This document shows, piece by piece, positions 44,011 through 63,899 of a stretch of DNA of 64,000 nucleotides (positions are counted from its first letter, which is position 1; each line of letters begins with the position of its first letter). The DNA is from Stegostoma tigrinum (lineage: Eukaryota), in assembly GCF_030684315.1 (NCBI RefSeq), contig NC_081399.1:6186113-6250112 (forward strand), written 5' to 3'. Made by a program: the position numbers and the translations under genes. The notes beneath the pieces were generated by a model. That model was not told the origin of the DNA. It did no database searches and saw nothing but the letters and a program-made list of their open reading frames with translations.

Positions 44011-45681
44011 CAGAATTGAAAATTTAATACTTGGTCGTCATTACATTGGGAAGTTAAGGTGTTCAAGCTTCTTCTCCAGGCTGAACATCCCCTGGAGAAT
44101 TGTGACTGCTGGGTTGAAAATTCACCAGAACATATTGGGCATTGGTTTAACATAAAAAGCATAAAGGAAACTTTATTTGCTCACCACAGCCGTGACAATT
44201 ATTTCTCCCTCTCAGCTCTGAGTTTCAAGAGCACAAAATCTTTTTGATTGGTCCACCACTTGTGCTGAGCCAGAATTTTCAATACACCAATGCTAATATC
44301 GAAAATACATGTCCCCAGAAGTGTGTGAGTAGTTCAATTAGTTAAAACTTGATCAAGGAATGAAGAAGGTGTTTTGAAAAATACTCAAAGCAGTTTGAGT
44401 CTGCATGCATTGATTTTTTTTTGCTATTGACCAGAACCTTCCTCAAGGCACCGTTTGATTTGATTTATTATTATCACATATACCTAGATACGGTGAAAAG
44501 TGTTGCTTGTGTGCTAGCGAGGCAAATCATACCTTACTTTAGCACATCAGAATAAGACAATAGAATGCAGAATATAGTGTAACAGCAACAGAGAAGGCAC
44601 AGAGAAAGAACAACTTCAAATTATGAGATATTTGCTCAAAACTCATATAACAGCGGGGAAGAAGCCGTTCTTCGATATGTTGGTAAGTGTTTTCAAATTT
44701 CTGCATCTTCTGACCAGTGGAAGAGGGTGGAATAGAATCGAAATGGTGCTGTCGAAAACTGAGTCCTGAGAATGGCGTGGAGGGCATGGGCGGTGATGAT
44801 GGACTGTCATTGACTCGAGAATCCTTACCAAGAGCTGAGAGTGAAAAGATGTGTTGAATGCTATTTCTCTGCACTCCCCATTCTCTGATTATATACCTGG
44901 TCGCAGGAAACATATAATGAGCAACTTCCGGTCAAGGTGGTGGCAGAGTAGGAGTTCCTACACTCCTGTTTATTTCTCGTTTCCTCCTGTTCCTTTCCCT
45001 TTTCTCTCCTTTTTCATGTTTTCCGCTCTTTTGGTGTTCGCCTCCCCAGTGGCAGGTCATTGCTGGTCTCGGAGGCTCGCCGTCAGTCATGGCTTGGCCT
45101 CTTATCAGCTTGTGGCAGGTCCCAGTTTGGCCTTGGGGTAGCTCTTATCCCAGTCTCTCGGCGATCCGTGGCGAAGTCTCCGCTCGGCTTTTGAGAGGAT
45201 CCGGCCCGGATATTTTCCTGGAACTCCGGAGAGTTTGGAGAGGCAGTAGCTTCAGCAAAAATGGCGATGCCTGCAGAAGCGTCATCAGGAACAACTGCTG
45301 AGATCGACTGGAAACAGAGACATGTGGAGGACTCATCAAAGGCTGTCGAAGTTTTAACGTTTTCCTTCATTTTCCTTGTTTAAACGGCTAAAGGCATTAA
45401 TGTTAACTATTACATTAGTTTTCAACTATTCTTTGAAATAATGTTAAACATTTTAACTCTCGTTTCTCTTAACACTTGTCTCCTCAGTTTTGTTCGCACT
45501 GAAGCATCTTGGTACCTAAGAAGGCACTCTGTGTGGCGATGTGTTACAGTTTTTTCCGTACTCCTGCATTTCTGTAGCTGAGAACAAGCGACAATTAAAT
45601 CAAAATAATGATATGAATACAATCGTCTGGCCCCATCTGTTGGTGGAGAATGCGAAATGAATTCCACTGGGATTGGATGCA

Positions 45682-45720
45682 GGTTTTTGCAGCTACCGAG
45701 ACACGTCCTCAAACGTTGTG
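45682..45720 (-). other. 23-RSS of V4
   Basis: CACAACG (45714-45720), 23-nt spacer, GCAAAAACC. Confidence 0.9.
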
Positions 45721-46012
45721 CTGCTACGCGCGCAATAATAGACAGCAGCGTGAGATTGAGAGGCGTCTCTCAGTTCCAAATTAAACTGTGTTTCACTGGT
45801 TCGTTTACCCTGGTAAGGCTCAGATGTGTAATTTGTAACAGCTCCTGTTGTAGCAGAGTAGAATAAAGCTTCTATTGCCCGGTCTGCCTTCTGTCTGTAC
45901 CAGTACATAGATCTGTAATCGATATTCTTCAGCATGCATTTGATTGTTACCGAGTCCCCTTCTGCAACTGAAACGGTGGATGGTGACTGCTCCACATAGG
46001 AGGCCAGATTCC
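45721..46012 (-). CDS. TRBV: TCR V exon V4 (family B)
   Basis: Acceptor TTCGACAG|GG. Frame NLASYVEQSPSTVSVAEGDSVTIKCMLKNIDYRSMYWYRQ...HAAVYYCARS. Confidence 0.9.
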
Positions 46013-46554
46013 CTGTCGAATATAAATGGGACTTGATTCAAACTTCTGACAAGAATTCATCAGGACATCTCAACAGAGAATTTCCAAACCCATAAAACCT
46101 GATACAATAAAAGAAAAAGGTAAAGCACATTTCAAGCATTTTGTATTCAGGTTGCGTAATTGTCAGGTTACTGTGAAAATTCATGCCAACAGTTTTAAGC
46201 AAATCCAGATCCAATCACAGCAATGCTTAATGACAAGTGCATATGTTCTTCTTAAAACGTTGTTCCAGGTTGAAATTTTGGATCAGCACCGGCTTTTGTC
46301 CAAAGAGGCCTTCTTAACGTTTCTCTCGGATTGAAGGGCACAGTTCGGTTTAACGTTATGTGTTCACAATGAATCTTGCAAATGTAAAAGGTTCTTTCGG
46401 TAATGACGCGCATAATGTCAGACTTGACTTCCAGCTGCAGGACCTGGACTGAGAATCGGTCCTATGATTCAAGAACAGACGAGCGAATGCAACCAAGTGA
46501 ACTATAGCACATTCGACAATACGCTATTCCATTCAAGTTGTGACCTTAACTAAC

Positions 46555-46624
46555 CTGTGAACAGTGGAACTATGCAGGTGAGCCAACAGACTTCGTACAA
46601 TATGATTCTGTTGTTTAACTCCAT
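46555..46624 (-). CDS. V4 leader exon; ancestral ATG changed to ATA (46603), in-frame upstream ATG at 46624
   Basis: MELNNRI-ILYEVCWLTCIVPLFT; donor ACAG|GTTAGT; aligns with the V5 and V7 leaders. Confidence 0.75.
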
Positions 46625-46696
46625 CTCCTTCTGTTTGCAGAGTTCAGTCCAATGACACCTGTGAAGGCACCTTATCTGATGCGTCTGATTAAATAC

Positions 46697-46705
46697 ACCA
46701 CATCC
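46697..46705 (-). promoter_or_regulatory. ETS:RUNX composite site in the V4 promoter
   Basis: GGATGTGGT directly 5' of TATA-like GTATTTAATC. Homologous sites: ACCGGATGTGAT at 60105-60116 (V7) and ACCGAATGTGAG at 53166-53177 (V5). Confidence 0.5.
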
Positions 46706-48164
46706 AGTTGTTGTCTCTTATTCAAAATAATTTGCTGCGAAACTTAAACCCCAGTTCACTATAGTTCTTGAAGACTCATTGGATGGTAGATGACTGGGCG
46801 GAGTTTATAGCAGAGCTCGAATTCCAAGAGGTTTTGTAGTCTGTTGTCAGTAAGAAAATTCTGACATTGAAGATGACGCAGGATAAGCTGTTTAGAGTGT
46901 AATCTGTGCAAGAAGATAGATGTTTGCCTATTGAAATATTCAGATCTGAAATGCATGGTCTGAAAGTATGGCCTGACCAGAAAGTCAACAAATTTCAAAA
47001 CAGATTTTGATGAATATGTGAAACAAGAAATGACAGGAATGGGGGAGAATGGTGTGGGGAGAAATGAAATGAATACCCTGAGCAAGACTGGTACTATGAA
47101 TACGTACCAGAACTGATAAACCTGATATTTAAGGGAGAAACAATCTTTGACAAGAGTTTGGTGAGCACTTCTTTAATTCTTCCTTGGGGTGTGGCTGAGC
47201 TAGCATTTATTGCGCATCCGGATTTTGTTATTTTTACTAAATCACAGACTGAGGGCATCGCCAGCTCAGCAGGATTTATCACATCTCTAATTTTCTGGAG
47301 GACTTCCAGTGAAAATTATTTTGCAATAGGTAAGAAGTCACATGGAAGTCAGAGGAAGGAATGGCATTTGTGAAACAGTTGGGTTATTCCAAAAGTAGAC
47401 AATTGCTTCATGGTCATCCTTAGACCCCTAATTCCAGATTCCTATTCATTGAACTCGAACTATAACATTTGCTGTGGTCGGATTGAACCAGAGTGCAGAG
47501 GCATCTCTGTTTCTCCCAGAACAGTCCAGCTGTAATACCATGAGGCGTGGACGCACTGTTTGGTGAGACAAATCTGCAAGAAAGATGAGATGCTCTGGTA
47601 TTCTGGGTACAGAGCTTGCATTATTTGACACACTGTGGAGTGTCTGGATGATCTGCACATTTTGAGAGCAGTACGACAGGCGAGAACATAGCAAACTGAT
47701 TTCAGTTGGACAAGGGATGGTCATCAAAGGCACAGATTTCCACTAATTTGAAAAGTAATTAGATATTGGAGGGAGATCATGTGATTCTCGAGAGTTACTG
47801 AAGGAATAGGCTGGGAATTTTCTTTGTGAACAACAATTTGTAATGAACTTTCAAGCATGCTGAAAGTCTTGGAAGCAGGAACAATGATAATGTTAGAAAG
47901 GTGCAAGGAAGTATGTGAAAGGAAACGATTCACTGAATCGTAAGTCAAGAACAAAGGGAGGTTGAGATCAACAGAATAGTTTTCCGAAACATCTGGGAAA
48001 GAAAATATGGCGTAACTTCCATTTTGTGTACTTCCTCTTCTCTAATTATCAATCTGGCGATACAAAATGTGCCATGAACATCAATCGCCTGCCCCCACCT
48101 TGTGGGGGGGGGGCGGGGGGGGTGGGTTGGAAATGGGTCCTAAACGTGCCCGGAATCGAATGCA

Positions 48165-48203
48165 GGTTTTTATAGCTGCAAAGACATTTCCTCAAACGCT
48201 GTG
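48165..48203 (-). other. 23-RSS of V5
   Basis: CACAGCG (48197-48203), 23-nt spacer, ATAAAAACC. Confidence 0.92.
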
Positions 48204-48495
48204 CTGCTGCACGCACAATAATAGACAGCCATGTGAGATGGAGAGGCCTCTCTCACTTCCAAACTAAACAGTGTTTCACCGGGTCTTTTAGCCTGGTAAG
48301 GCTCGGACGTGTAATTTGTAACGAAATCTTTTCCAGCAGAGTAGAACAAAGCTTCTATTGCCTGGTCCGGTTTCTGTCTGTACCAGTACATGCAGCTGTA
48401 AGCTGTATCTTTCAGCTTGCATCTGAGTGTAGACGAATGTCCTGCTGAAATCGACACAATGGATGGAGACTGCTCCACGTAGAAGGCCAGAATTC
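48204..48495 (-). CDS. TRBV: TCR V exon V5 (family B)
   Basis: Acceptor ATTCTTCAG|GA. Frame ILAFYVEQSPSIVSISAGHSSTLRCKLKDTAYSCMYWYRQ...HMAVYYCACS. Confidence 0.9.
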
Positions 48496-48640
48496 CTGAA
48501 GAATGTAAAGTAGAATACATTCAAATTTATAGCAATAATTCACCAAGACAACGGCTGGTTTAAATGGAGTAAATCCAGTAGCATATAACCTGTCAAAATA
48601 AAAGCACGTTTTAAACCAGGTTCCAAGCACTTATCATTTT

Positions 48641-51600
48641 AGAACATAGAACATAGAACAGTACAGCACAGAACAGGCCCTTCAGCCCACGACGTTGTGC
48701 CGACCATTTATCCTCATGTATGCACCCTCAAATTTCTGTGACCATATGCATGTCCAGCAGTCTCTTAAATGACCCCAATGACCTTGCTTCCACAACTGCT
48801 GCTGGCAACGCATTCCATGCTCTCACAACTCTCTGTGCAAAGAACCCGCCTCTGACATCCCCTCTATACTTTACTCCAACCAGCTTAAAACTATGACCCC
48901 TCGTGTTAGCCATTTCTGCCCTGGGAAATAGTCTCTGGCTATCAACTCTATCTATGCCTCTCATTATCTTGTGTACCTCAATTAGGTCCCCTCTCCTCCT
49001 CCTTTTCTCCAATGAAAAAAGTCCGAGCTCAGTCAACCTCTCTTCATAAAATAAGCCCTCCAGTCCAGGCAGCATCCTGGTAAACCTCCTCTGAACCCTC
49101 TCCAAAGCATCCACATCTTTCCTATAATAGGGCGTCCAGAACTGGACGCAGTATTCCAAGTGCGGTCTAACCAAAGTTTTATAGAGCTGCAACAAGATCT
49201 CACGACTCTGAAACTCAATCCCCCTGTTAATGAAAGCCAAAACACCATATGCTTTCGTAACAACCCTGTCCACTCGGGTGGCCATTTTAAGGGATCTATG
49301 TATCTGCACACCAAGATCCCTCTGTTCCTCCACACTGCCATGAATCTTATCCTTAATCCTGTACTCAGCTTTCAAATTCGACCTTCCAAAATGCATCACC
49401 TCGCATTTATCCAGGTTGAACTCCATCTGCCACCTCTCAGCCCATCTCTGCATCCTGTCAATGTCCCGCTGCAGCCTACAACAGCCCTCTATACTGTCCA
49501 CGACACCTCCAACCTTCGTGTCATTTGCAAACCTGCTGACCCATCCTTCAATCCCCTCATCCAAGTCATTAATAAAAATTACAAACAGTGGAGGCCCAAG
49601 GACAGAGCCCTGTGGAACACCACTCACCACTGACTTCCAGGCAGAATATTTTCCTTCAACTACCACTCGCTGCCTTCTGATGGCCAGCCAATTCTGTATC
49701 CAGACAGCTAAGTTCCCCTGTATCCCATTCCTCCTGACCTTCTGAATGAGTCTACCATGGGGAACCTTATCAAATGCCTTACTGAAGTCCATATACACCA
49801 CATCCACAGCTCGACCCTCATCAACTTTTCTAGTCACATCCTCAAAGAACTCGATAAGGTTTGTGAGGCATGACCTGCCCCTTCACAAAGCCATGTTGAC
49901 TGCATTTGATCAAGCCATGCTCTTCCAGATGGTCATAAATCCTATCCCTCAGAATCCTTTCTAACACCTTGCAGACGACAGACGTGAGACTTACTGGTCT
50001 GTAATTGCCGGGGATTTCCCTATTTCCTTTCTTGAAGAGAGGAATTACATTTGCCTCTCTCCAGTCCTCAGGTACGACTCCAGTGGACAGCGAGGATGCA
50101 AAGATCTTCGCAAGTGGCGAAGCAATTGCATTTCTCGCTTCCCAAAGCAGCCGAGGACAAATCTGGTCCGGGCCTGGCGACTTGTCAATTGTAATGTTTG
50201 ACAAAATTTTCAGCACATCAGCTTCCTCTATCTCTATCCATTCCAGCATGCACACCTGCTCTTCAAAGGTTTCATTCACTAAAAAGTTCGTTTCTTTCGT
50301 AAAGACAGAAGCAAAAAACTCATTTCGGGCTTCCCCTACCTCCTCAGACTCCACACACAAGTTCCTTATGCTATCCCTGATTGGCCCTACTCTTTCTTTG
50401 ACCATTCTCTTATTCCTCACATAAGTGTAAAATGCCTTTGTGTTCTCCCTAATTCGTTCTGCCAAGCCTTTCTCGTGCCCCCTCCTGGCTCTCCTCAGAC
50501 CATTTTTGAGCTCATTCCTTGCCTGCGTGTAATCCTCTCTAGCTGAACTTGACCCTAGCTTCCTCCACCTTATGTAAGCTGTCTTCTTCCTTTTCACAAG
50601 AAGCTCCACCGCTCTCATCATCCAAGGTCCCTTTATCTTACCCCTTCTTGCCTGTCTCAGAGGGACATATTTACTCATCACTCGCAACATCTGTTCCTTA
50701 AACAGTCTCCACATGTCTATAGTGCCCTTACCATGGAACAATTGCTCCCAGTCCATGCTTCCTAACTCATGTCTAATCGCGTCATAGTTTCCTCTTCCCC
50801 AATTAAATATCCTCCCATTTTGCCTAATCCTCTCCTTCTCCATAGCAATGTAGAATGTGAGGCAGTTATGGTCACTATCACCAAAATGCTCTCCCACCAC
50901 AAGATCTGATACCTGCCCCGGCTCGTTTCCGAGCACCAAGTCTAGAATGGCCTCGCCCCTTGTCGGCCTGTCAACGTACTGAGTTAGGAAACCCTCCTGA
51001 ACACACCTTACAAAAACAGCTCCATTCAAATCTTCTGCTCGAAGGAGGTTCCAATCAATATTAGGAAAGTTAAAGTCACCCATTACAACAACCCTACTAC
51101 GTCCACACTTTTCCAAAATCTGTCGACCTATGCTTTCTTCAATCTCCCTGCTGCTATTGGGGGGCCTGTAGTAAACCCCTAACGAGGTGACCACTCCCTT
51201 GCTGTTCCTAATTTCCACCCATACTGACTCAGTAGGCAGATCTTCCTCGACAATGGAAGCTTCTGTAGCTGTCATACCCTCTCTGATTACTGGTGCTACA
51301 CCCCCTCCTCTTTTTCCCCCCTCCCTATTCTTTTTAAATGTTCTAAACCCTGGAACATCCAGCAACCATTCCTGCCCATGAGAAACCCATGTCTCTGTTA
51401 TGGCCACAACATCATAGCACCAGGTACTGATCCATGCTCTAGGTTCATCACTTTAATTCCTGATACTCCTTGCATTAAAGCAAACACACTTTAACTGATC
51501 CCTTGGTTCCTTCCCAGGAAAATCCTTCCCACGAACTGGTCTACCTCTTGCTACTGCCTCACCTGCATCAACTCTCACCTCCGGTATACAGCTCAGGTTC

Positions 51601-52656
51601 CCAGCCCCCTGCCATACTAATTTAAACCCTCTCGAACTACTCGAGAAAACCTTCCACCCAGGACATTGGTCCCCTTCCAGTTCAGATGCAACCCGTCCTT
51701 CTTGTACAGGTCCCACCTTCCCCAGAAGGCATCCCAATTATCTACATATCTGAAGCCCTCCCTCCTACACCAGCTGCGTAGCCACGTGTTAAGCTGCGCC
51801 CGCTCCCTGTTCCTCACCTCGCTATCTCGTGGCACTGGTAGTAAACCAGAGAACAGTACTCTGTTCGTCCTGCTTTGCAGCTTCCATCCTAACTCCCTGA
51901 AATCACTTTTTATCTCCTCAATCCTATTTCTGGCTATATCATTAGTGCCAATATGTAACACGATTTCTGGCTGTTCGCCCTCCCCTTTTAGAACCTTATA
52001 CACCCGATTGGAGACGTCCCGGACCCTGGCACCAGGGAGGCAACATACCTTCCGGGAATCCCGATCCTGACCACAAAATCTCCTGTCAATTCCCCTAACG
52101 ATCGAGTCCCCTATCACGAGTACTTTTCTATTCTGCCCCCTTCCCTTCTTTGCCACAGTGTCAGGCTCAGTGCCAGAGAACTGACTACTATGGCTTTCCT
52201 CTGGTAGGTCATTCCCTGCCGCCCCCCAACCCCCCAGCAGTATCCAAAACGGTCTACTTATTGCTGAGGGGAATGCCCACAGGGGATCTCTGCACTGTCT
52301 GTCTGTCCCCTTTCCTCCCCCTAGCTGTAACCCATCTATCCTTGTCCTGAAACTTAGGAGTGACCAACTCCCGGTAACTCCTCTCAATTACCCCCTCTGC
52401 CTCCCGAATGATCCGTAGTTCATCCAGCTCCAGCTCCAGCTCCATTTCCCTAACATGGTTGCTCATATATATGGTCACTGCTTTCCTTCCCGGCTGCCCC
52501 TCTGGTCCTTGTCACTTCCTCCGCTGCTCCCGCTCCTTCTGTGAAAGAGAAAAACACCGCTGCCCGCTCCCGGTAAGTAATTTTAAAAATAAACTGCTTT
52601 ACCTTAGCTGCAGTCTTCCGAGTCCGTCTTACCTCCGCTGCTGCTCGCACTCAAAA
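48641..52656 (-). mobile_element. CR1 LINE copy 2, retains the 5' UTR, inactivated, inside the V5 intron
   Basis: Near-identical to copy 1. ORF1 zinc finger deleted plus frameshift; ORF2 nonsense codon at 51453, frameshift about 49882, FADD>FAND. Possible ATTTT target-site duplication (48636-48640 / 52657-52661). Confidence 0.93.
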
Positions 52657-53023
52657 ATTTTGTTTACTTAATTGTCAGGTTACTTTTAAAATTTATCCCA
52701 ACAGTTCTGAGCGAACCTAGATCCAATCACAGCGTCACGTCTGTTCTTTTTAAAGCTTTGTTCCAAGTTGGAATTTAGGAGGAGGGGTTGCTTTTCCCCA
52801 AAGAAAAGTTGATATTCGTTTTCTCCGACGGAAGAGTGCAGTTCTGTTTAACACTATGTGCTCGCTGTGAAACTTGTAAACTCTGTAATGACAGCTTCAA
52901 TTTCCAGCTTCAGGATCTGGAGTGAGAGTCGGAGCAATGACTCCGAGATGGGAGAGTGTTAACGAGTCAATGACAGCTCATTTGACAATGTATTGTTGTG
53001 TTCACTCTGTGACATTGACTGAC

Positions 53024-53072
53024 CTCGGGACAGTGCAAACATCCAGATGAGGTAGTCGGCTTCATGCAGCAT
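53024..53072 (-). CDS. V5 leader exon (MLHEADYLIWMFALSR), separated from the V exon by a 4.5-kb LINE-containing intron
   Basis: 49 nt; donor CGAG|GTCAGT. Intron sequence on both sides of the CR1 is collinear with the V4 intron. Confidence 0.85.
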
Positions 53073-53371
53073 GATCCTGTCACTTCGCTCTGGCTCCCTC
53101 TGTGAATATAATGCTGTTCAATGACAGCAGAGTAAGCAAATTATCTGTTCCATTTGATTGAATACCTCACATTCGGTGGCTATTGCTTTCTGTGACACCA
53201 TTTGCTGAGAGGCATAAACTCCATGGCACTATATTTTTCAGTGACACATTAATTTGAGAAATCACAGGGCGGTGTGAATAGCAAGACTTAAACTTCAAGA
53301 AAGATGAGATAATAAAATATGAGGCTGGATGAACACAGCAGGCCAAGCAGCATCTCAGGAGCACAAAAGCT

Positions 53372-53399
53372 GACGTTTCGGGCCTAGACCCTTCATCAG
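53372..53399 (-). ncRNA. Minimal hammerhead ribozyme core (Penelope pLTR)
   Basis: Same 28-nt motif on the minus strand. Confidence 0.7.
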
Positions 53400-54242
53400 A
53401 GAGGGGGATGGGGAGAGGGAACTGGAATAAATAGGGAGAGAGGGGGAGGCGGACCAAAGATGGAGAGTAAAGAAGATAGGTGGAGAGAGTGTAGGTGGGG
53501 AGGTAGGGAGGGGATAGGTCAGTCCAGGGAAGACGGACAGGTCAAGGAGGTGGGATGAGGTTAGTAGGTAGCTGGGGGTGCGGCTTGGGGTGGGAGGAGG
53601 GGATGGGTGAGAGGAAGAACCGATTAGGGAGGCAGAGACAGGTTGGACTGGTTTTGGGATGCAGTGGGTGGGGGGGAAGAGCTGGGCTGGTTGTGTGGTG
53701 CAGTGGGGGGAGGGGACGAACTGGGCTGGTTTAGGGATGCAGTAGGGAAAGGGGAGATTTTGAAACTGGTGAAGTCCACATTGATACCATATGGCTGCAG
53801 GGTTCCCAGGCGGAATATGAGTTGCTGTTCCTGTAACCTTCGGGTGGCATCATTGTGGCACTGCAGGAGGCCCATGATGGACATGTCATCTAGAGAATGG
53901 GAGGGGGAGTGGAAATGGTTTGCGACTGGGAGGTGCAGTTGTTTGTTGCGAACTGAGCGGAGGTGTTCTGCAAAGCGGTCCCCAAGCCTCCGCTTGGTCT
54001 CCGTCTCTGCCTCCCTAACCGGTTCTTCCTCTCACCCATCCCTTCCTCCCACCCCAAGCCGCACCCCCAGCTACCTACTAACCTCATCCCACCTCCTTGA
54101 CCTGTCCGTCTTCCCTGGACTGACCTATCCCCTCCCTACCTCCCCACCTACACTCTCTCCACCTATCTTCTTTACTCTCCATCTTCGGTCCGCCTCCCCC
54201 TCTCTCCCTATTTATTCCAGTTCCCTCTCCCCATCCCCCTCT

Positions 54243-54270
54243 CTGATGAAGGGTCTAGGCCCGAAACGTC
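54243..54270 (+). ncRNA. Minimal hammerhead ribozyme core (Penelope pLTR)
   Basis: CUGAUGA-A-GGG(UCUAGG)CCC-GAAAC-GUC. Confidence 0.7.
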
Positions 54271-55279
54271 AGCTTTTGTGCTCCTGAGATGTTGCTTGGC
54301 CTGCTGTGTTCATCCAGCCTCACATTTTATTATCTTGGATTCCAAGCATCTGCAGTTCCCATTATCTCAGAAAGATGAGATAGTTTGGATTGTAGACATT
54401 AAAGGCGATGCACGATAAGTCGCTTTATGTGTAAATTGGAAACGAAGACACCTTTTCGTACATCGACATGCTCTGACCTGAAATCCGTTGTCTGAAAACG
54501 TGGTTTGAGTGGAAAAGCAGCAAATTTCAAAACATCTTTCAATAAATAGATGTACAGAGGAATGAGAAGATTGAAGGAGAGAGTAGATGGAGAGAGATGA
54601 AGTGAGTACTGTAACAATTTCGAAGAATTGTACATACATTGGGAATCTGATATTTCAGGATGAAATATTCCTTCAAAACACAATGAAGACTTTTTTTAAA
54701 ATTCATTCTCGGTGTGTGGGTGTCCTGGCTAGGCTAAAGTCTTTTATACATCCTCAATTTCAAAAAAAAATTATTCACGGTATGAGGGCCTTGCCAACTT
54801 AGCCAGAATTTATTCCCCATCGTTAATTGCCGAGAGGACAGTTCAGAGGCAATCACTTTGCTTTTAGTCTGCAGTCATATGTAAGGCAGGCCAGGTAAGG
54901 ACAGTAGTGCACCAGTTGATCACGTATTCCCAGAAAATTCCTGCGGTTCTGGCTGAACAGAGCAATGATAATACCACTGAGCCATCGCCGACACTTATAC
55001 TAGACAGGTGGTGGTGAGATGCCTTCTTGAAATTTCGTGGTCTGTTTTTTTATGGCTCTGCAGAAGTGATGGTTTGCTGGGACACTTCAGAGGCACTTCA
55101 CAGTTAGCCTCAATGAAGTCTTCAGGACGGCAGATTATCTTCCTAAAAGGGCATCCATGAAGCAGATATGTGAAATTTAATCTCAGTTTCGTGCTCACAA
55201 TAACATTTAACAGGCTTTGATCTGCTCATTTTTAATGTATAATTAGTTTCTCGAAACGACACTTAATGATACAAACTTT

Positions 55280-56580
55280 GATTCAGCAAGGTTGTAAGGA
55301 GAAATAGGGGAACAATAGACCTCTGAGTCTGACTTCAGTTTTGGGTAAATTGTTGGAGATGATTATAGAATGTAAAATTTATGGACATTAAGGGAGGCAA
55401 AAATTGATTAGGGACAGTCATCATGATTTTCTGAGAGGAACATTGTGTCTCCTGATTGAATTTTTGAGCAAGTTACGAAAAAGATCGATGATGGCAGAGC
55501 AATGGGTGTTGCTTATTTGGATTTAGCAAAGCCTTTGACGCGCTTCTGCATGGTGGGCAAAACAGTAATAACAGATCACATGGGATTCGTGATGAGCTTA
55601 CCAGTTGGATGCATAATTGGCTCAAAGGCAGCCGACAGAGTGTAGTGATAGAGGTGGTGCTTTTCGGCCTGGTTGTCTGTCTGCAGCGGTTTTCCACAGG
55701 GATCAATTCTGAGACCTCTTTTGTTTGTCATTCACTTAAATGAAATGGATGAGAATACAGCGGAATAGTTAGTGCGGGAGAACCAAAACTGGGGGCATAG
55801 TAGGCAGTCAAGAATGTTCTCTAAGATTACAAAGGGATCTTGATCAAATAGGTCAACGGTCTGAAAAATGACACATTCAGTTCAATGTGGAAAATTCCGA
55901 GGTATTGCATTTTGGTACATCAAACAAGGGCACGCATTGTACAATTGATGGTAGGACCTTGCGTAGTGTGGTGAAATAGAGGGACCTAAGGGATGCAGAT
56001 GCATAATTATTTGAGGTTTGCATCACTTGTAGACATGGTCGTTTAAAAGGCATTTACCGTGATTGCCTTCACTGTTCAGTCCTTTGAGTAAAGAAGTTGA
56101 GAAATCATGCTGAGGTTGTACAGAGAAGCCGTTCGGGGAAAACTGTGTCTAGTTTTGGTCGCCCAGTCGGGGTATTTTCACTGGTAGCATAGCAGGTTGA
56201 GAGGCGACCTCAAAGAAGTTCATTCAATAATGAGAGATATACATAGAGCCAATTGTACTTGTCTTTTCCCTAGGATTGGGGATTTCAAGAATGAAGGCAC
56301 TTTTTAAGGTATGAGGATAGAGATTTAGCAAAGACATGAGAGGCATTTTTTTCACGCAGGTGTTGATTAGCGTGTGTAATGACCCTGACGTGAACCTGAG
56401 GAAATGGTGGATGTGCATACAATTACAATATTTTTAAGACATTTGGATAAGTACGTGAATAGGAAACTTTTGGATGGATTATGGGCCCAGGAACAGGCAA
56501 GTGAGATCAGTTTAATTTGGGATCATTTCCAGTATGAACTGCTTGGACCAAAATGTTTCTTTCTCTGCTGTATGACTATT
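55280..56580 (+). mobile_element. Old CR1 fragment
   Basis: Decayed RT C-terminal homology, same subfamily as 36230-37640. Confidence 0.65.
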
Positions 56581-57582
56581 TAAAACGACAATACATACTA
56601 GCACGAGGAAGGTGACACTGGGAGGTTACTTTCACAGGGTACAATGGACTGTGCTGATCTCATTTCAAGAGTTTAAGTTGCCAGGATCACCCTCGTAGTC
56701 CTCTTACGTTGGGTTGGATCCTGTGCTTTCATGAAACATGCAACATTTTCTGGTCAAAGAGCTTCCTTGTTCCATACAGTGAGGCTGATTCCACAACTTT
56801 GTGTGAAAATGTGTTCCTTCAAATTACTTCAGTGGACGACAGCTGAGGGATTGCTGGACTGCCGTGAAAAGTAACACAGACGGAGTGCTGCTGCACTGTT
56901 TGACACGTTGATGTTGAAATGAGTCTTCTCTCAAAAAAAATGTCATGACTTGAATCTTCTGACTGCAGTTTTGCTCAATTGCGGGTTTGGAGTGTGGTGA
57001 GACTCGTCCGTGAATGTCACAGAATGGTTAACTCACACATTTCAGTGGAACGTTCATGATGAATAGTATTGACGTACGACTGGAATTACCCATGGGCCAG
57101 ACCAATTTGTTGAAGTTAGCTTTTAATCTGCCAGTCACAGATACTCAACTGAACTTAATTTCAAGAAAGTAGAGAAAAAAATGCAAGAATCGGCAGTGCA
57201 TTGGAATAGAGATTTTGTGAGTTTTGTGAGCGAGTGATTTCGAAATGCTTTAACAGTCAGTTTCATTTCATTGAGTTCAACAGTGGCCACTGGAAATTCG
57301 CACATTACTGCGAGTTGCTATTTTTGTGGGCGGGGGACCTTTCAGATTCGCGCAGCAATCATCTACCTCTCTGCTGGAGAGAATGGAAATGGGATAGTTT
57401 TAAGTTACTGACTAAATCTCATCATTACTCGCCAGATAGCGAAGCAATCTGTTTTACGGCCCGGAGAAAGGTGCCCTGAACGTTTCTCGTCTGTCCCCAC
57501 CTGCCGATGGGAAATGGGTCCTGAAAATATTTGGGGTCGGATGCAGGGTTTTGTGGCTGCAAAGACTTTCTCAAATGATGCG

Positions 57583-57869
57583 CACTGCTACACGCACAGA
57601 AATAGAGAACTGTGTGAGATGGTGAGACACCTGTCAGTTCTGAAGCGTTTGACTGCGTTTTACAGCCCAATAAGACTCGGATGTGTAATTTGCAACAGCT
57701 GTTGCTGCATCAGAATTGAATAAAACTTCCATTGCCCGATCGGGTTACTGTCTCTATCAATACCTTTGGAGACAGCTGGCGTACTTCAGCGTACTTTTAA
57801 CTTTAGCCGAGTCTCTTTCAGAAATCGACACCAAAAAAGGAGACTGCTTCACATCGCAGACCAGAACTC
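57583..57869 (-). pseudogene. V6 pseudogene (family B)
   Basis: Cys23 changed to Ser; the WYRQ region reads TGA TAG AGA CAG TAA; FR3 frameshift; degraded heptamer (nonamer ACAAAACCC at 57546-57554). No leader found, and intron homology ends about 58280. Confidence 0.9.
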
Positions 57870-59206
57870 CTGTCGAATGTGAAATTTAAAAAGACACGCA
57901 AAATTCTGACAATACTTCAACAAAACAACGGCTGCATTTCAACAAAGGGTTTGCATTGATGTACAAAGTGCCATAATCCAGAAACATATCTCAAACACAG
58001 GAACAGAAACAAAATACTTACTATGAAATGTATCGTCACTGTTAAAATGTAGTTTCCTGCAAAGCAGTGTTCAGTAACAGCAGCGTGACAATGACCACGA
58101 CAATGTGTTCTTTTCAAACATTGCCTCAGTCTGATATTTTGGAGCAGGACCTGCTTTGCTCTTGCGAGGGGATTGTGATTAGAGACACCAACTGTAAAGA
58201 AAAGCGTTCTGTTTAGTATTTTGCATTCTCTGTAAACCTTGTATAAGTGCAGGGTGCCTTCAATCTATATAGTGACGCGAGTAAAAGAAAACTGAGATAT
58301 GGTGTTCACTGGGTACAGTGAACTGTGCTGATATCATCTAAAATGTTGACATTGGCAAGAACACCCTCATGGCCATCTTCCGTTCTGTAGAATCCTTTTC
58401 TTGTGTAAAATATGCAACATCATTGTATCAAAGTTCTCCCTTGTGCCATGCCACAAGATTTATTCCGAAAATGTGTGATTGCCTGTTTCTTCAAATTAAT
58501 TCACCGTGTGTGGGCTGAGGGAAAGATGCACTGTCATAGATGCAATGCACAGGGGGCGTTGATGTGCTATTTGACAAGTGACGTGGGGAGAAGTCTTCTC
58601 TCAAATAAACTCTTCCACAGTTTGAATGTTGTGCCTGCACTTTGGCTTAAAAATGTGATTGGATTGTGGTGACACACCCCATGAATGTCACTGAGGTGTG
58701 TACACTCAGCTATCAGTGAAAGATAATGGTGACCAGCAGTGAGTCTACATTTACATGTAAATCAGATTGGGGAAGAATGGGCAAAATCAGCTTGGAATTT
58801 GTCAGTCAAAGATGCTCAACTGAGCCACAGTTTGCAGAAAGGGGGTATTAAATGCAGCAGTAGGGTGTGTACTGGAAGAGAGTGAATTCCGAGTTTTCTG
58901 AGCAATTGACTCCAAACATTTTGCCAGTCAGTTTCATTTCATTAAACCCAGTATCGTCTGCTGGAAATTCGCTCATAAATGCGATATGTTGTTTTCAGTG
59001 ATCTTTCAGACTGTTCCAAAATTATCACTCTCTCTGCCGGAAAGAATGAGGTTAGGATACTGAAGTTAATGACAAAATTTGGCTCTTTCGCTACCATTTA
59101 ATAAGGTTGTCTCTCTTGACACAAAAGAAATGTGTCCTGAACATCAATGGTCTGTCCCCACCAGCTGGTGGAAAATGAAACGGGAACGTTTATGGAGTCC
59201 AAAGCA

Positions 59207-59245
59207 GGTTTTTGCAGCTGCAACGACAACTTCTCAAACACTGTG
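59207..59245 (-). other. 23-RSS of V7
   Basis: CACAGTG (59239-59245), 23-nt spacer, GCAAAAACC. Confidence 0.95.
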
Positions 59246-59539
59246 CATTACTACACGCACAGAAATAGACAGCCGTGTGAGATGAAGAGGCGCTTCTCAG
59301 ATCCAAGGTAAATAGCGTTTGGGTCGGTCTGTTGGCCTGATAATTCTCAGATGTGTAATTTTCAGGGGGTCCTGTTGTAACAGAGTAAAACAAAGCTTCT
59401 ATTGCCCGGTTTGGTTGCTGTCTGTACCAGTACATTTGGAGATAGCTTGTATCCTTCAGACTACACTTGATTGTCTTCGACTCTCCTTCTGCAATAGAGA
59501 TGATGTATGGAGACTGTTCCACATAGGAAGCCAGAATTC
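59246..59539 (-). CDS. TRBV: TCR V exon V7 (family B), apparently functional
   Basis: Acceptor TTTGACAG|GA. Frame ILASYVEQSPYIISIAEGESKTIKCSLKDTSYLQMYWYRQ...HTAVYFCACS. Confidence 0.92.
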
Positions 59540-59973
59540 CTGTCAAATGTAAAGTGGAACCGATTCAAATTTCTGACAATCATTCATCAGAGCAAGGTCT
59601 GCATTTAACTAAAGGGCTTGCATTTACATAGAACCTGCCACAATCCAGAAACATACCTCATTTAAGGAAATGCAATAATCTTACTTAAATTTCAGTTCAT
59701 GATTAAAATTCACGTCGGCCATGTTGAGCAAGAGTTTGATATTTTGGAGCAAGACCTGCTTTTCTTTGAATAGGCCACTGTTATCACTGTCTCCAATATG
59801 AACGTTGTAAAACATAGAGTGCTCTCTCAATAGTGACATGTGGGTTATCAGCCTTGTTTTCCAGCTCCAAGGTCTGGAGTGAGAATTTCTAATCCAGATA
59901 GGCGAATGCTAAGAAATAAATTACAGTTCATTTGACAACGTGCTATTTCATTCGCGGTGAGCTTGTGACTAAC

Positions 59974-60022
59974 CTGGGGACAGTATAAAAATCCAGATGA
60001 GATAATAGGCTTCATGCAACAT
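59974..60022 (-). CDS. V7 leader exon (MLHEAYYLIWIFILSP)
   Basis: 49 nt; donor CCAG|GTTAGT; phase 1. Confidence 0.88.
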
Positions 60023-60974
60023 GATCCTGTTACTTCACACTTGCTCCCTCTGTGCAGGAATATCACCTTTGAAGGCAGTTTCTCTGTTCGATCCGATTAA
60101 ATACATCACATCCGGTTGCTATCTCGTTGCCTCGAAGCCATTTGCTGTCAAACCTAAGCTCCACCTCCCTCTATTCCTCAACGACGCATTGGATTGATAG
60201 GCGGCAGGTCGGTGTGAATAACGGGGCTCAAAATGCGAGAGAGATTGCATAGTTTAAATTAACAAAAACAATTATTCCATTGGGTTGTTAATAACACGAG
60301 TCTAGACATTGAAGGTGAGAAAGGTAATCAACTGAAAGCGAAAATGGGAGATACAGAGAGCCTTTGATACATCGAGATTTTCTGATCCGAAATGCATTTT
60401 CTGAATGTGTAGTCTAAGCGGGATACAATTCACTTTCCAACAGATTTAGATGAATACCAGAAATGAGAAACGGTAGAAATGTAGGCAAAAAAAACGCGTG
60501 GCGAGAGATGGACGTATGCAGAGACAAAGTTTCAGGATCATAAATACAAGACGACACTGCCAAACCAGAGGCTTCAGCGAGAAGCAATCTTTCACAAGAG
60601 ATCGTGACCACATGTTTAAATCTTTCCTGGAATGTGGATGTCACTTTGCGGGGTAATAGTTATAGTCCACCTGGAACTGATTCTGTGAAGGTGGTGTTGA
60701 AGTGCGTTCTTGAATCTACCTGCTCGATTCTGTCACTGTTGTTTGTAAATAATGTTTTTTCTGGTCCTTTTCAGGGGCTATTTCAGAATCAGTCCTGTAG
60801 CTCTGTGTCTGACGACAAATCGACTCCAGACCAGGTCAAAATGACAGATTTCCTTACTTGAAGGGAGCAGTGAAAAAAATGCATGATTCTTCGAGTGGCA
60901 ATTTTGTGAGCACTATGAAGACAACATGCTTTGAAATGATACTTAAAAAATGAAAAATGCATAATGCCTTACTT

Positions 60975-61446
60975 GACATGAACAACTTCAAAATCTCCCC
61001 TTCCCCCACCGCATCCCAAAACCAGCCCAGTTCGTCCCCTACCCCCACTGCACCACACAACCAGCCCAGCTCTTCCCCTCCACCCACTGCATCCCAAAAC
61101 CAGTCCAACCTGTCTCTGCCTCCCTAACCTGTTCTTCCTCTCACCCATCCCTTCCTCCCACCCCAAGCCGCACCTCCATCTCCTACCTACCAACCTCATC
61201 CCACCTCCTTGACCTGTCCGTCTTCCCTGGACTGACCTATCCCCTCCCTACCTCCCCATCTATACTCTCTCCACCTATCTTCTTTTCTCTCCATCTTCGG
61301 TCCGCCTCCCCCTCTCTCCCTATTTATTCTAGAACCCTCACCCCATCCCCCTCTCTGATGAAGGGTCTAGGCCCGAAACGTCAGCTTTTGTGCTCCTGAG
61401 ATGCTGCTGGGCCTGCTGTGTTCATCCAGCCTCACATTTTATTATC
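60975..61446 (+). mobile_element. Penelope 3' fragment with a hammerhead core at 61355-61382
   Basis: Same family as 53307-54368; contains CTGATGAAGGGTCTAGGCCCGAAACGTC. Confidence 0.8.
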
Positions 61447-63566
61447 ATGAACAGTAATGACGCGGTTAAACGACATAGTACGTTGTTATGAGAAAGACAA
61501 AACACAGAGTGTCCTTTGAAAGTGTACAAAGACCTACACTGACCCCATCTCGGGAGTTGACATTGACAGGAAGGGCCTAATTGTCTTCATGCATTCTGTA
61601 GGGTCCCTTGTTTTGGTGAAATACGCAACATTCTTGGGGCAAAATGCTACATTGTTCCGTGCAGCGAGGCTTTTTCCATCAATGTTTGACTGTGTGTTTC
61701 TTTAAAATAATACACTGGAAATGGGCTGAAGCAGCGATGCATGCCAGAGGAGCCACAGAGGAGTGCTGATCTGCCAGTAGTGCGCTGTTTGCGAGTTGGC
61801 ACCAAAACGAGTAATCTCTCGAGTAAATAATCACAGATTTGACCCAGTCCTTTTGTTTAAGAGCACGTCAGTGTTGAAACGCTTTCATGAATGTCACTGA
61901 GTGGCTTGGCTGTCCATTTCAGGGGAGGTTAATGGTGCATCGCAATGTTGTGCGTCTGGTATCGCATATGGTCGACATTGGGGTAAGATGGGTAAATTTG
62001 GGTGTCATTCGAGCAGAAAGAATGGTTCATCTGAATCTCAGTGCATAGAAGGATTAAATAAATGTACTAACACGGGATGTATTGGAATTGAAAGAGTTAT
62101 TCTGTGTTTTGTGAGTGTGTTGTTTCCTGAGATTATAACAGTCATTCACTTTCCATCAAATATAGAATTGCTTGCTATTAAACTTTGATGGTGATATCCA
62201 GTTTCAAGGCCACATCAGACTTCAGCATGACTCTAATGTCTCTTCTGGAGTGAATGAGTAAAAGATAACTGAGTTTTGGAATGAATTTGTTTCTTCACCT
62301 GCCAGATCGTGAAGTCACCCAAATCTCAGCGGTGTAAATAGGAAATGTGCATTTGTGTGGATGTATTGAAGCGGACGTGAAACACTGAGAGTGGTGAGTA
62401 AAGGATGTTGCTGTGAAGAGGAAGAAGGCGTTGTTTTCACTCTGGCTGCTGCACAGCCCTGGAGGCCAGCAGATGAAATATTGCTCGAGAGGGTTGATTC
62501 CAAACAACAAGGAAAGAATCACACAGAGGACATCAGTGGATATAATGTTTGGTGAGACAGATCTGCGGGAGAGATGAGATGCTCTGGTATCCTGGATACA
62601 GGACATGAATTATTTGGGAGATTGTAGAGTATCTGGGTGATTTGGAGACTTTGGGAATAATACAGGGGGTCTCCAGTGGAGATAGGCTTGAGTTTTTCAC
62701 AACAATGAAATATTCCTTGGAGTGAACACAGGAAACTCATTTCAATAAGATAAGTGACGTTCCTCAGAGACACAGTTTTCCACTCATTTGAGAAGTGAAT
62801 AACTAGTCGGGGTGGGGGCGGGAGTCAGGTGAGTTTTAAGAGTTCCACGTGGAAGAAGGTGGACTCTTCCATGTGATGAAAAAAAATGTATCGATTGTAT
62901 CGAACTTTAAAGCACGGCTCTATGAGACAAAGGTTTGGAAGCGGATTTAAAAATGACATTAGAAAGTTGATCAGAGTAAGGATGTGAATGGAAACGATTC
63001 TCTAGTTACTAGACCAAGATCAAAAGGAGATGGAGATGACACAAGTCCTTGAAAACCATTGTGAAAATCTGTGACCGTCACTGAGTGGTTAAACTCGCCC
63101 ATTTCAGTAGAAAACTAATGGCTAACAACATAGCAGTGTGAGTAGATTTACAGTTAGACCACATGGGCGAAACAAGCTTTGAATCTGCCATTCAAACATG
63201 CCCATCAGAACCTCGTTTTGAAGAAAATGGATATTAAATATCAGAGAAACTCTTCTGAGTTTTGTGAGCAAGTCGTTTCCAAACATTTTAACAGTCAATT
63301 TCATTTCATTAAACCCAGCATTGCCTGTGAGAAATTCGCACACAAATATAATTTTCTCTTCTGGGGGATCTTTCAGACTCGTTCTGGAGTTATCGCTCCC
63401 TTTGCTGGAAAGGCTAAGGATAAGAGATTGAGGTTACTGGCTAAATTGTTCCCTGCGAGATAGTAAAGTCATCTGTCCTTTAACAGAATATGTGTCCTGA
63501 ACATCAATCGTCTAACCCCACCTGCTGGTGAGAAATGAATCCTGAACATCCCTGGTGTCGAATGCA

Positions 63567-63605
63567 GGTTTTTGTAGCTGCAAAGACAATAACTTCAACA
63601 ATGTG
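63567..63605 (-). other. 23-RSS of V8
   Basis: CACATTG (63599-63605), 23-nt spacer, perfect nonamer ACAAAAACC. Confidence 0.9.
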
Positions 63606-63899
63606 TATTACCGCATGCGCAGAAATAGACAGCCGTGTGAGATGGAGAGGTATCTTTCAGTTCTAAAGTAAACGTCGTTTCACTGGGTCTTTTAGCCTGA
63701 TAAGATTCGGATGTATAACTTGTAATTAAACCTTCACCAGCAGAGTAGAATAAAGCTTCTATTGCCCTGCTGGGTTGCTGTCTGTGCCAGTACCTATCTC
63801 TGTAAACTGTATTCTTCAGAATGCGTCTAAGTGTATTTGAGTCCTCTCTCTTAATCGAAACACTAGAAGGAGACTGCTCCACGTAGAAGGACAGATTTC
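63606..63899 (-). CDS. TRBV: TCR V exon V8 (family B): open frame but Cys23>Arg; leader outside the window
   Basis: NLSFYVEQSPSSVSIKREDSNTLRRILKNTVYRDRYWHRQ...HTAVYFCACG. CGC at 63823-63825 replaces TGC. Confidence 0.85.

What the first reader, a model, noticed from the sequence alone, without database searches (positions are those of the whole stretch)
45630..63528. CTCF-like/E-box motif at a fixed 38 bp past the nonamer of family B RSSs
Seen (minus strand): CCAACAGATGGGGC 45630-45643, CCACAAGGTGGGGG 48092-48105, TCGGCAGGTGGGGA 57494-57507, CCAGCTGGTGGGGA 59155-59168, CCAGCAGGTGGGGT 63515-63528. The spacing is 38 bp in four copies (59 in V5 because of a G-run). A second CTCF-like motif lies about 110-130 bp further on (CCAGCAAAGGGAGC 63395-63408; 59027-59040; 57364-57377). 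All point toward the presumed D-J-C. Established: RSS-adjacent CTCF elements regulate RAG scanning at mouse proximal VH genes, and E-proteins bind CANNTG at Vbeta. Inference: loop-extrusion or E2A accessibility control may be ancestral to jawed vertebrates. Caveats: the core GGC reads GGG, and the flanks are duplicated anyway.
Basis: partly seen in the sequence, partly recalled or inferred. Interest (0 to 1): 0.7.

Follow-up and report, generated by a model that had tools for sequence, protein, structure and literature searches.

The report
Weak CTCF-like site behind shark V-beta
One family of shark T-cell-receptor beta gene segments carries, 38 letters behind its DNA-cutting signal, a modestly conserved 45-letter stretch that starts with an imperfect match to the site of the genome-folding protein CTCF; it likely helps these segments get picked for rearrangement, as in mouse antibody genes, but binding is untested and the other segments checked lack it.

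Summary
Observation confirmed: all eight strings, the 38/59-bp spacing and the orientation toward D-J-C are right; the locus is shark TCR-beta. The five copies belong to one 14-copy V family, so the repeat is one inherited event. The family consensus scores 13.8 bits on a recalled CTCF matrix (8 of 12 copies p<1e-4, 1 of 12 above 13 bits), but no copy has the near-invariant core C, both intact genes carry a damaging core change, and the substitutions are not CTCF-shaped. What is conserved is a ~45-bp block (+36 to +80; 85% vs 78-80%, P 0.0006-0.007; held-out copies 0.002-0.016; boundaries chosen afterwards), of which the motif is the 5' end. Motif 2 is weak and confined to one four-copy subgroup. 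None of 46 other V-RSSs in this genome has a forward hit, so 'ancestral to jawed vertebrates' is unsupported here. Best reading: a weak, family-specific CTCF-type site (0.4); neutral co-duplicated flank (0.35); E-protein/composite element (0.22). The scan has noted similar, often stronger, motifs in other sharks (unchecked).

The parts
63606..63899 (-). TCR-beta V exon, family B; pseudogene (stop in leader, which lies just right of the window; first Cys lost)
63567..63605 (-). 23-RSS
63487..63531 (-). ~45-bp conserved block; motif 1 at 63515-63528 (12.8 bits, E-box CAGGTG)
63395..63408 (-). motif 2, 9.6 bits, subgroup-specific flank
59974..60022 (-). leader exon of the intact V 59245
59246..59539 (-). 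intact TCR-beta V exon; 84% identical to a nurse shark TCR beta chain record
59207..59245 (-). 23-RSS
59127..59171 (-). conserved block; motif 1 at 59155-59168 (8.3 bits; A-to-T at a key CTCF position, which leaves a CAGCTG E-box 3 bp upstream)
59027..59040 (-). motif 2, 3.6 bits
57583..57869 (-). V pseudogene (stops)
57546..57582 (-). broken RSS (no CAC, 21-bp spacer)
57466..57510 (-). conserved block; motif 1 at 57494-57507 (5.8 bits, CAGGTG)
57364..57377 (-). motif 2, -1.3 bits
53024..53072 (-). leader exon of V 48203, 4.5 kb from its V exon
48640..52660 (-). ~4-kb reverse-transcriptase-coding (LINE-type) insertion in the intron of V 48203; ends approximate; carries the strongest CTCF matches of the interval (50491, 17.8 bits; 49686, 15.9 bits)
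48204..48495 (-). open V exon; 86% identical to a nurse shark TCR beta chain record
48165..48203 (-). 23-RSS
48064..48108 (-). conserved block displaced by a 21-bp C-run; motif 1 at 48092-48105 (12.3 bits, no E-box)
46555..46603 (-). leader of V 45720; start codon reads ATA, so likely a recent pseudogene
45721..46012 (-). open V exon; orthologue-like whale shark record P0004 (83 of 96 residues)
45682..45720 (-). 23-RSS
45602..45646 (-). conserved block (3' part diverged); motif 1 at 45630-45643 (12.1 bits, CAGATG)

Best explanation
The motif is the 5' end of a modestly conserved ~45-bp stretch that the ancestor of one shark TCR-beta V family carried 36-80 bp behind its RSS and passed to all copies by duplication; it is likely a weak CTCF site that would briefly pause cohesin loop extrusion from the D-J end and so would hold the neighbouring V RSS near RAG. 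Shown: the family, the shared flank, the orientation, the matrix score, the excess conservation of the block. Inferred: selection on the block, CTCF as the binder, and the pausing mechanism (by analogy with mouse VH and V-kappa). Most copies are now pseudogenes and the site is decaying. It is family-specific in this genome, so at most a parallel to the mammalian layout, not evidence of common descent.
For: Family consensus 13.8 bits, p=5e-6; 8 of 12 copies p<1e-4 (matrix recalled). Hits that good: 20 of 8848 background windows. Points toward D-J-C like all bound mouse V-beta sites; a reverse motif of 16.7 bits lies 33 kb beyond the C exon. Score retained better than neutral columns predict: P 0.016-0.039 in 11 copies, deletion copy left out. 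Identity drops to background at +1 to +25 and rises to 85-88% from the motif on, like the nonamer window; block 450 of 528 vs 78-80%, P 0.0006-0.007; held-out 7 copies 258 of 304, P 0.002-0.016; motif alone in held-out copies P 0.03-0.09. In the 7-copy flank lineage 0 of 263 overlapping 45-bp windows beyond +80 reach it, in the 4-copy lineage 5 of 306. Key G columns 10, 13 and 16 unchanged in 11 of 11. Whale shark read-through record keeps 7 of 7 motif codons and 4 of 4 after. CTCF motif is conserved to lamprey and orientation-biased at skate TAD borders.
Against: No copy has the core C (G in 10, T in 1), which the matrix penalises most; the whale shark codons imply G too. 0 of 12 copies are within the 2 mismatches used to call mouse VH sites. 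Only 1 of 12 copies, a pseudogene, exceeds the 13-bit cut used for reliable sites in PMC11153149. Both intact genes carry a damaging core change. Direction-of-change test: P 0.03 falls to 0.24-0.55 when one hypervariable column is dropped; CTCF-only columns are not significantly conserved (P 0.25-0.39); score retention in the 6 held-out copies P 0.11-0.25. The next 26 bp are as conserved as the motif, which CTCF does not require. 68 of 1093 upstream 19-bp windows match the motif's conservation in the four open-frame genes. No upstream motif (4 of 9). Open-frame vs pseudogene scores 11.6 vs 7.0, P 0.107. The whale shark match has no power (87% background).
Confidence: 0.4

Rival explanations
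1. Neutral passenger: the ancestral V happened to have a CTCF-like/E-box string in its flank, duplication copied it, and the small excess of identity comes from chance, local mutation rate or gene conversion.
For: More than 1.3 kb of flank aligns between copies at 65-73%. Raw identity: motif 83%, next 30 bp 84%, spacer 78.5%, intron 80%, V exon 81%. About 6% of upstream windows do as well; 4 of 78 relabelled-matrix noncoding windows reach the motif's score. Substitutions are not CTCF-shaped. 3 of 12 copies have indels in or through the motif. 0 of 46 other V-RSSs have it. Block boundaries were chosen after seeing the data.
Confidence: 0.35
2. The block is a small composite accessibility element whose active core is the E-box (E2A/HEB-type), with other factors on the 3' half; the CTCF likeness is incidental because CAGGTG overlaps the CTCF core.
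For: CANNTG in 9 of 12 copies vs 5.1 expected, P 0.022. Both intact genes keep an E2A-type box although each has a CTCF-damaging change. The columns shared by both motifs are the best conserved (P 0.004-0.02). The conserved unit is 45 bp, longer than a CTCF core. E2A sites act as extrusion impediments at mouse V-kappa (PMC11153149).
Against: E-box-only columns are not significant (P 0.14-0.24); the open V 48203 has lost the box; six-base boxes are common; the flanking CCAG and G-run fit CTCF beyond what an E-box needs; no passage found for E-boxes just 3' of V-beta RSSs.
Confidence: 0.22

Closest known systems
RSS-associated CTCF sites of mouse D-proximal VH and human IGHV genes (PMC6746451, passages read; PMC5859386, passages and Table 2)
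   Same: Downstream of a V RSS, fixed distance, family-restricted, oriented toward D-J-C.
   Different: TCR-beta not IgH; 38 bp not 17-19 (mouse) or 19/48 (human); 3-6 mismatches to the mouse VH consensus and no core C; conservation only slightly above the spacer and extending ~26 bp past the motif; binding not shown.
CTCF elements of mouse Tcrb (PMC5859386; PMC10772921, passages read)
   Same: Same locus type; V-side sites face D-J-C, with a convergent candidate beyond C.
   Different: Mouse has 18 bound sites, several at promoters and only 2 near an RSS; Tcrb folding is bidirectional and not pure RAG scanning. The shark V-to-D span is only about 116 kb.
E2A-bound V-kappa sites as weak extrusion impediments (PMC11153149, passages read)
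   Same: E-box near a V segment could play the same pausing role.
   Different: Defined there by ChIP signal, not by a fixed RSS distance; nothing measured here.

Membership tests
TCR-beta V array | V with 23-RSS, D with 12/23 RSSs, J with 12-RSS, C exon; similarity to TCR beta chains | tested here: met
   the C exon's PDB hits are mixed Ig/TCR C domains, so the label rests on RSS layout and the V matches
RSS-associated CTCF element | fixed distance 3' of the V RSS | tested here: met
   38 bp in 6 copies checked directly (63605, 59245, 57574, 45720, 85123, 80819); shifted or broken by indels in 4 of 12; distance differs from mammals
RSS-associated CTCF element | oriented toward D-J-C | tested here: met
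RSS-associated CTCF element | canonical core (within 2 mismatches of the VH consensus; core C present) | tested here: not met
   0 of 12 within 2 mismatches; core C in 0 of 11; 8 of 12 still pass p<1e-4 on the recalled matrix
RSS-associated CTCF element | as conserved as the RSS and much more than the spacer | tested here: inconclusive
   19-mer 85%, nonamer 89%, spacer 78.5%, next 26 bp 85.5%; not CTCF-shaped
RSS-associated CTCF element | kept in functional, lost in non-functional members | tested here: inconclusive
   11.6 vs 7.0 bits, P 0.107; best copy is a pseudogene; only 2 genes fully intact
RSS-associated CTCF element | upstream motif for fingers 9-11 (optional) | tested here: not met
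   best 4 of 9 to the optimum given in PMC10287918
RSS-associated CTCF element | CTCF occupancy and effect on V usage | not testable with these tools
   no ChIP run was listed
E-protein site | CANNTG | tested here: met
   9 of 12 copies
E-protein site | E2A/HEB binding | not testable with these tools
   no binding data

The most novel reading that the evidence does not exclude
A cartilaginous-fish V-beta family carries a working, non-canonical CTCF site (GGG for GGC) fused to an E-box inside a 45-bp composite element behind its RSS, so CTCF/E-protein pausing of loop extrusion was recruited to TCR V segments in sharks, independently of or long before the mammalian VH sites.
Probability: 0.3. 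Interest if true: 0.65.

Novelty: new variant of a known kind. Interest (0 to 1): 0.35.

Why it matters
How V segments are brought to RAG has been worked out in mouse; whether the oldest jawed vertebrates use RSS-adjacent CTCF or E-protein sites is open. Four literature searches (listings only) showed no paper on such sites in sharks. If bound, this gives a small natural series (12 variants, intact and decayed) that can be tested by EMSA and repertoire data. If neutral, it is a caution: fixed spacing and shared orientation among paralogues count as one event.

Tried and rejected
Public runs with 'ChIP' in the library description: none was listed; this is no evidence either way, and no reads were laid. 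The 2018 shark genome paper was not held. A measured CTCF energy matrix in the supplement of PMC5694663 is a picture and could not be read, so scores rest on a recalled JASPAR MA0139.1 count matrix (column sums consistent), cross-checked only against published consensus strings. Genome-wide patterns for RSS plus canonical GGC core at 10-40 bp: 0 hits; the GGG control pattern returned the 3 expected family copies and nothing else. Motif 2 as a second conserved site: rejected (4 of 12 flanks, 1 of 4 with p<1e-4, no more conserved than neighbours). Direction-of-change test as support: rejected after dropping one column. Upstream motif: rejected. Read-through proteins: two word-index searches found nothing; the HMMER search gave 1 usable record among 151 proteins held. 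Look-ups of earlier notes by place and by sequence found nothing, so homology to sites noted in other sharks is untested. Two of 14 family copies (V exons cut by insertions) have no flank and were left out; 8 of 20 spot stretches had no V-RSS; one search used only 9 of 12 rows and omitted two weak copies, so its lower P values are not relied on.
Full report
Locus. The window is G000:C59:6186113-6250112. With 100 kb on each side it resolves into a minus-strand V array with 23-RSSs (window-relative 102.9 kb to -3.7 kb), a D flanked by 12- and 23-RSSs at -13.6 kb, five J-like segments and a C exon at -31 kb. V 59245 and V 48203 are 84% and 86% identical to nurse shark TCR beta records. This is a shark TCR-beta locus and the motifs face D-J-C.

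Observation. All eight strings are exact and the spacings are as stated. The tree is star-like with about 0.13-0.33 changes per site per copy, and more than 1.3 kb of upstream flank aligns at 65-73%. Recurrence, spacing and orientation are therefore one inherited event. Only V 85123 (outside the window) and V 59245 are fully intact; V 48203 has a 4-kb reverse-transcriptase element in its intron, V 45720 has lost its start codon, the rest are broken.

CTCF match. The family consensus scores 13.8 bits (p 5e-6); 8 of 12 copies pass p<1e-4 and 1 of 12 exceeds 13 bits. The near-invariant core C is G in 10 and T in 1 of 11 copies; no copy is within two mismatches of the mouse VH consensus; the upstream motif is absent (4 of 9). 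A forward hit of 13.8 bits or more occurs in 20 of 8848 background windows.

Conservation, for. Raw identity to consensus hardly differs (motif 83%, next 30 bp 84%, spacer 78.5%, intron 80%, exon 81%), but G/C columns decay faster (74% vs 84%), so the motif is 6 points above expectation, the nonamer 8. Matrix score is retained better than bootstrapped neutral columns in 11 copies (P 0.016-0.039). A sliding profile falls to background at +1 to +25 and holds 85-88% from the motif to +80. CANNTG survives in 9 of 12 copies against 5.1 expected (P 0.022). A whale shark record that reads through the RSS (P0004) keeps 11 of 11 residues over the block's start against 83 of 96 in the exon: compatible, not significant, and it implies the same G in place of the core C.

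Conservation, against. Boundaries were chosen after looking. Score retention in the six held-out copies is not significant (P 0.11-0.25). The apparent bias toward mild substitutions (P 0.03) vanishes without one hypervariable column (P 0.24-0.55), and CTCF-only columns are unremarkable (P 0.25-0.39); the signal sits in columns shared with the E-box. Both intact genes have a CTCF-damaging change yet keep an E2A-type box. The 3' half of the block is as conserved as the motif. 68 of 1093 upstream windows equal the motif in the four open-frame genes. Power is low: likely promoter motifs reach only 83-85% in the same copies.

Generality. Within 150 bp of the RSS, no forward hit at p<1e-4 was found for 11 V on C5, 18 V on C55, 12 V in 20 spot stretches, or 5 other V-beta: 0 of 46, with 2 reverse hits, about chance. 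My labels for those loci (TCR-gamma, TCR-alpha/delta, Ig) are inferred from sequence ends and were not tested, and they are a sample of 150 scored from 986 V-set candidates. Genome-wide strict patterns found no RSS with a canonical core at 10-40 bp, while the GGG control found only this family. The strongest CTCF matches in the interval lie in the inserted retroelement.

Comparison. Mouse RSS-associated VH sites lie 17-19 bp from the nonamer, human 19 or 48 bp, are far more conserved than their spacer and bind CTCF (PMC6746451, passages). Mouse Tcrb has 18 bound V-side sites facing D-J-C, only 2 near an RSS (PMC5859386, passages), and folds bidirectionally (PMC10772921, passages). E2A sites can also impede extrusion at V-kappa, and 13 bits plus a ChIP peak was used for reliable sites (PMC11153149, passages). 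The CTCF motif is the same in lamprey, though motif scanning alone predicted binding poorly there (PMC5504073, passages), and skate TAD borders show the orientation code (PMC10115646, passages). Defective cores fall to non-specific binding whatever the flank (PMC10287918, section 16). PMC8199221 and PMC7696796 (passages) gave nothing on E-boxes behind V-beta RSSs. The shark element works, if at all, like these sites but fails the canonical-core test and should not be filed as one.

Earlier notes. The scan holds 25 unchecked findings in at least 11 genomes on CTCF motifs behind shark TCR RSSs, some about 35 bp behind V-beta. They suggested the read-through test; I could not link them to this block by sequence and do not count them as support.

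Verdict. Real string, one event, probably part of a weakly constrained 45-bp element. Weak CTCF site 0.40, neutral flank 0.35, E-protein or composite element 0.22. The claim of ancestry in jawed vertebrates is not supported by this locus. Interest 0.35.

Noticed in passing
window 50491 and 49686; 27283 and 26479 (minus strand); also G000:C55:1005996: The strongest CTCF matches in the window (13.6-18.5 bits) lie in the coding region of a LINE-type element and its copies, about 805 bp apart, facing D-J-C in the two window copies.
   Followed up: partly
window about 48640-52660: A 4-kb retroelement with long open frames sits in the intron of the otherwise open V 48203, making the intron 4528 bp instead of about 540.
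   Followed up: partly
e.g. window 4680, 14609, 53334 (+); 54308, 61420 (-): An abundant short repeat reads like a cryptic RSS (CACAGCA, 22-bp spacer, nonamer with 2 mismatches); 23 rows in 264 kb on both strands.
   Followed up: no
about 104 and 58 bp upstream of family B leaders, e.g. window 46690-46706 and 46657-46662: Shared promoter block with an ETS/RUNX-like motif and a CAGGTG E-box (labels recalled), 83-85% conserved, damaged in V 48203.
   Followed up: partly
G000:C59 near 6121866 (+), 33 kb beyond the C exon: A 16.7-bit CTCF motif facing back toward the V array, a candidate counterpart of the mouse 3' Tcrb site; chance of such a hit in that span is not small.
   Followed up: no
window 32344 and 38366 (-), 43177 and 31585 (+): Further CTCF matches of 13-15 bits between V families, in both orientations; not checked for repeat origin.
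   Followed up: no
G000:C5:3010860, 3049740, 3109726 and 3003675, 3023279, 3073057, 3101538: Two likely TCR-gamma V families have an E-box 46 bp (CAGGTG) or 76 bp (CAGCTG) behind the nonamer; recent duplicates, so two events.
   Followed up: no
L090 (12-RSS V) and window V 9100: Reverse-facing CTCF matches 10 bp (9.2 bits) and 32 bp (10.2 bits) behind the nonamer.
   Followed up: no
about 85 bp behind the nonamer of family B: The flanks split into two unrelated lineages (7 and 4 copies) just where the conserved block ends; V 45720 diverges slightly earlier. Cause unexplained.
   Followed up: partly
G000:C59 near 6172493-6172505 (-): The single D segment begins GGGACAGGG, like mammalian D-beta 1 (recalled).
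   Followed up: no
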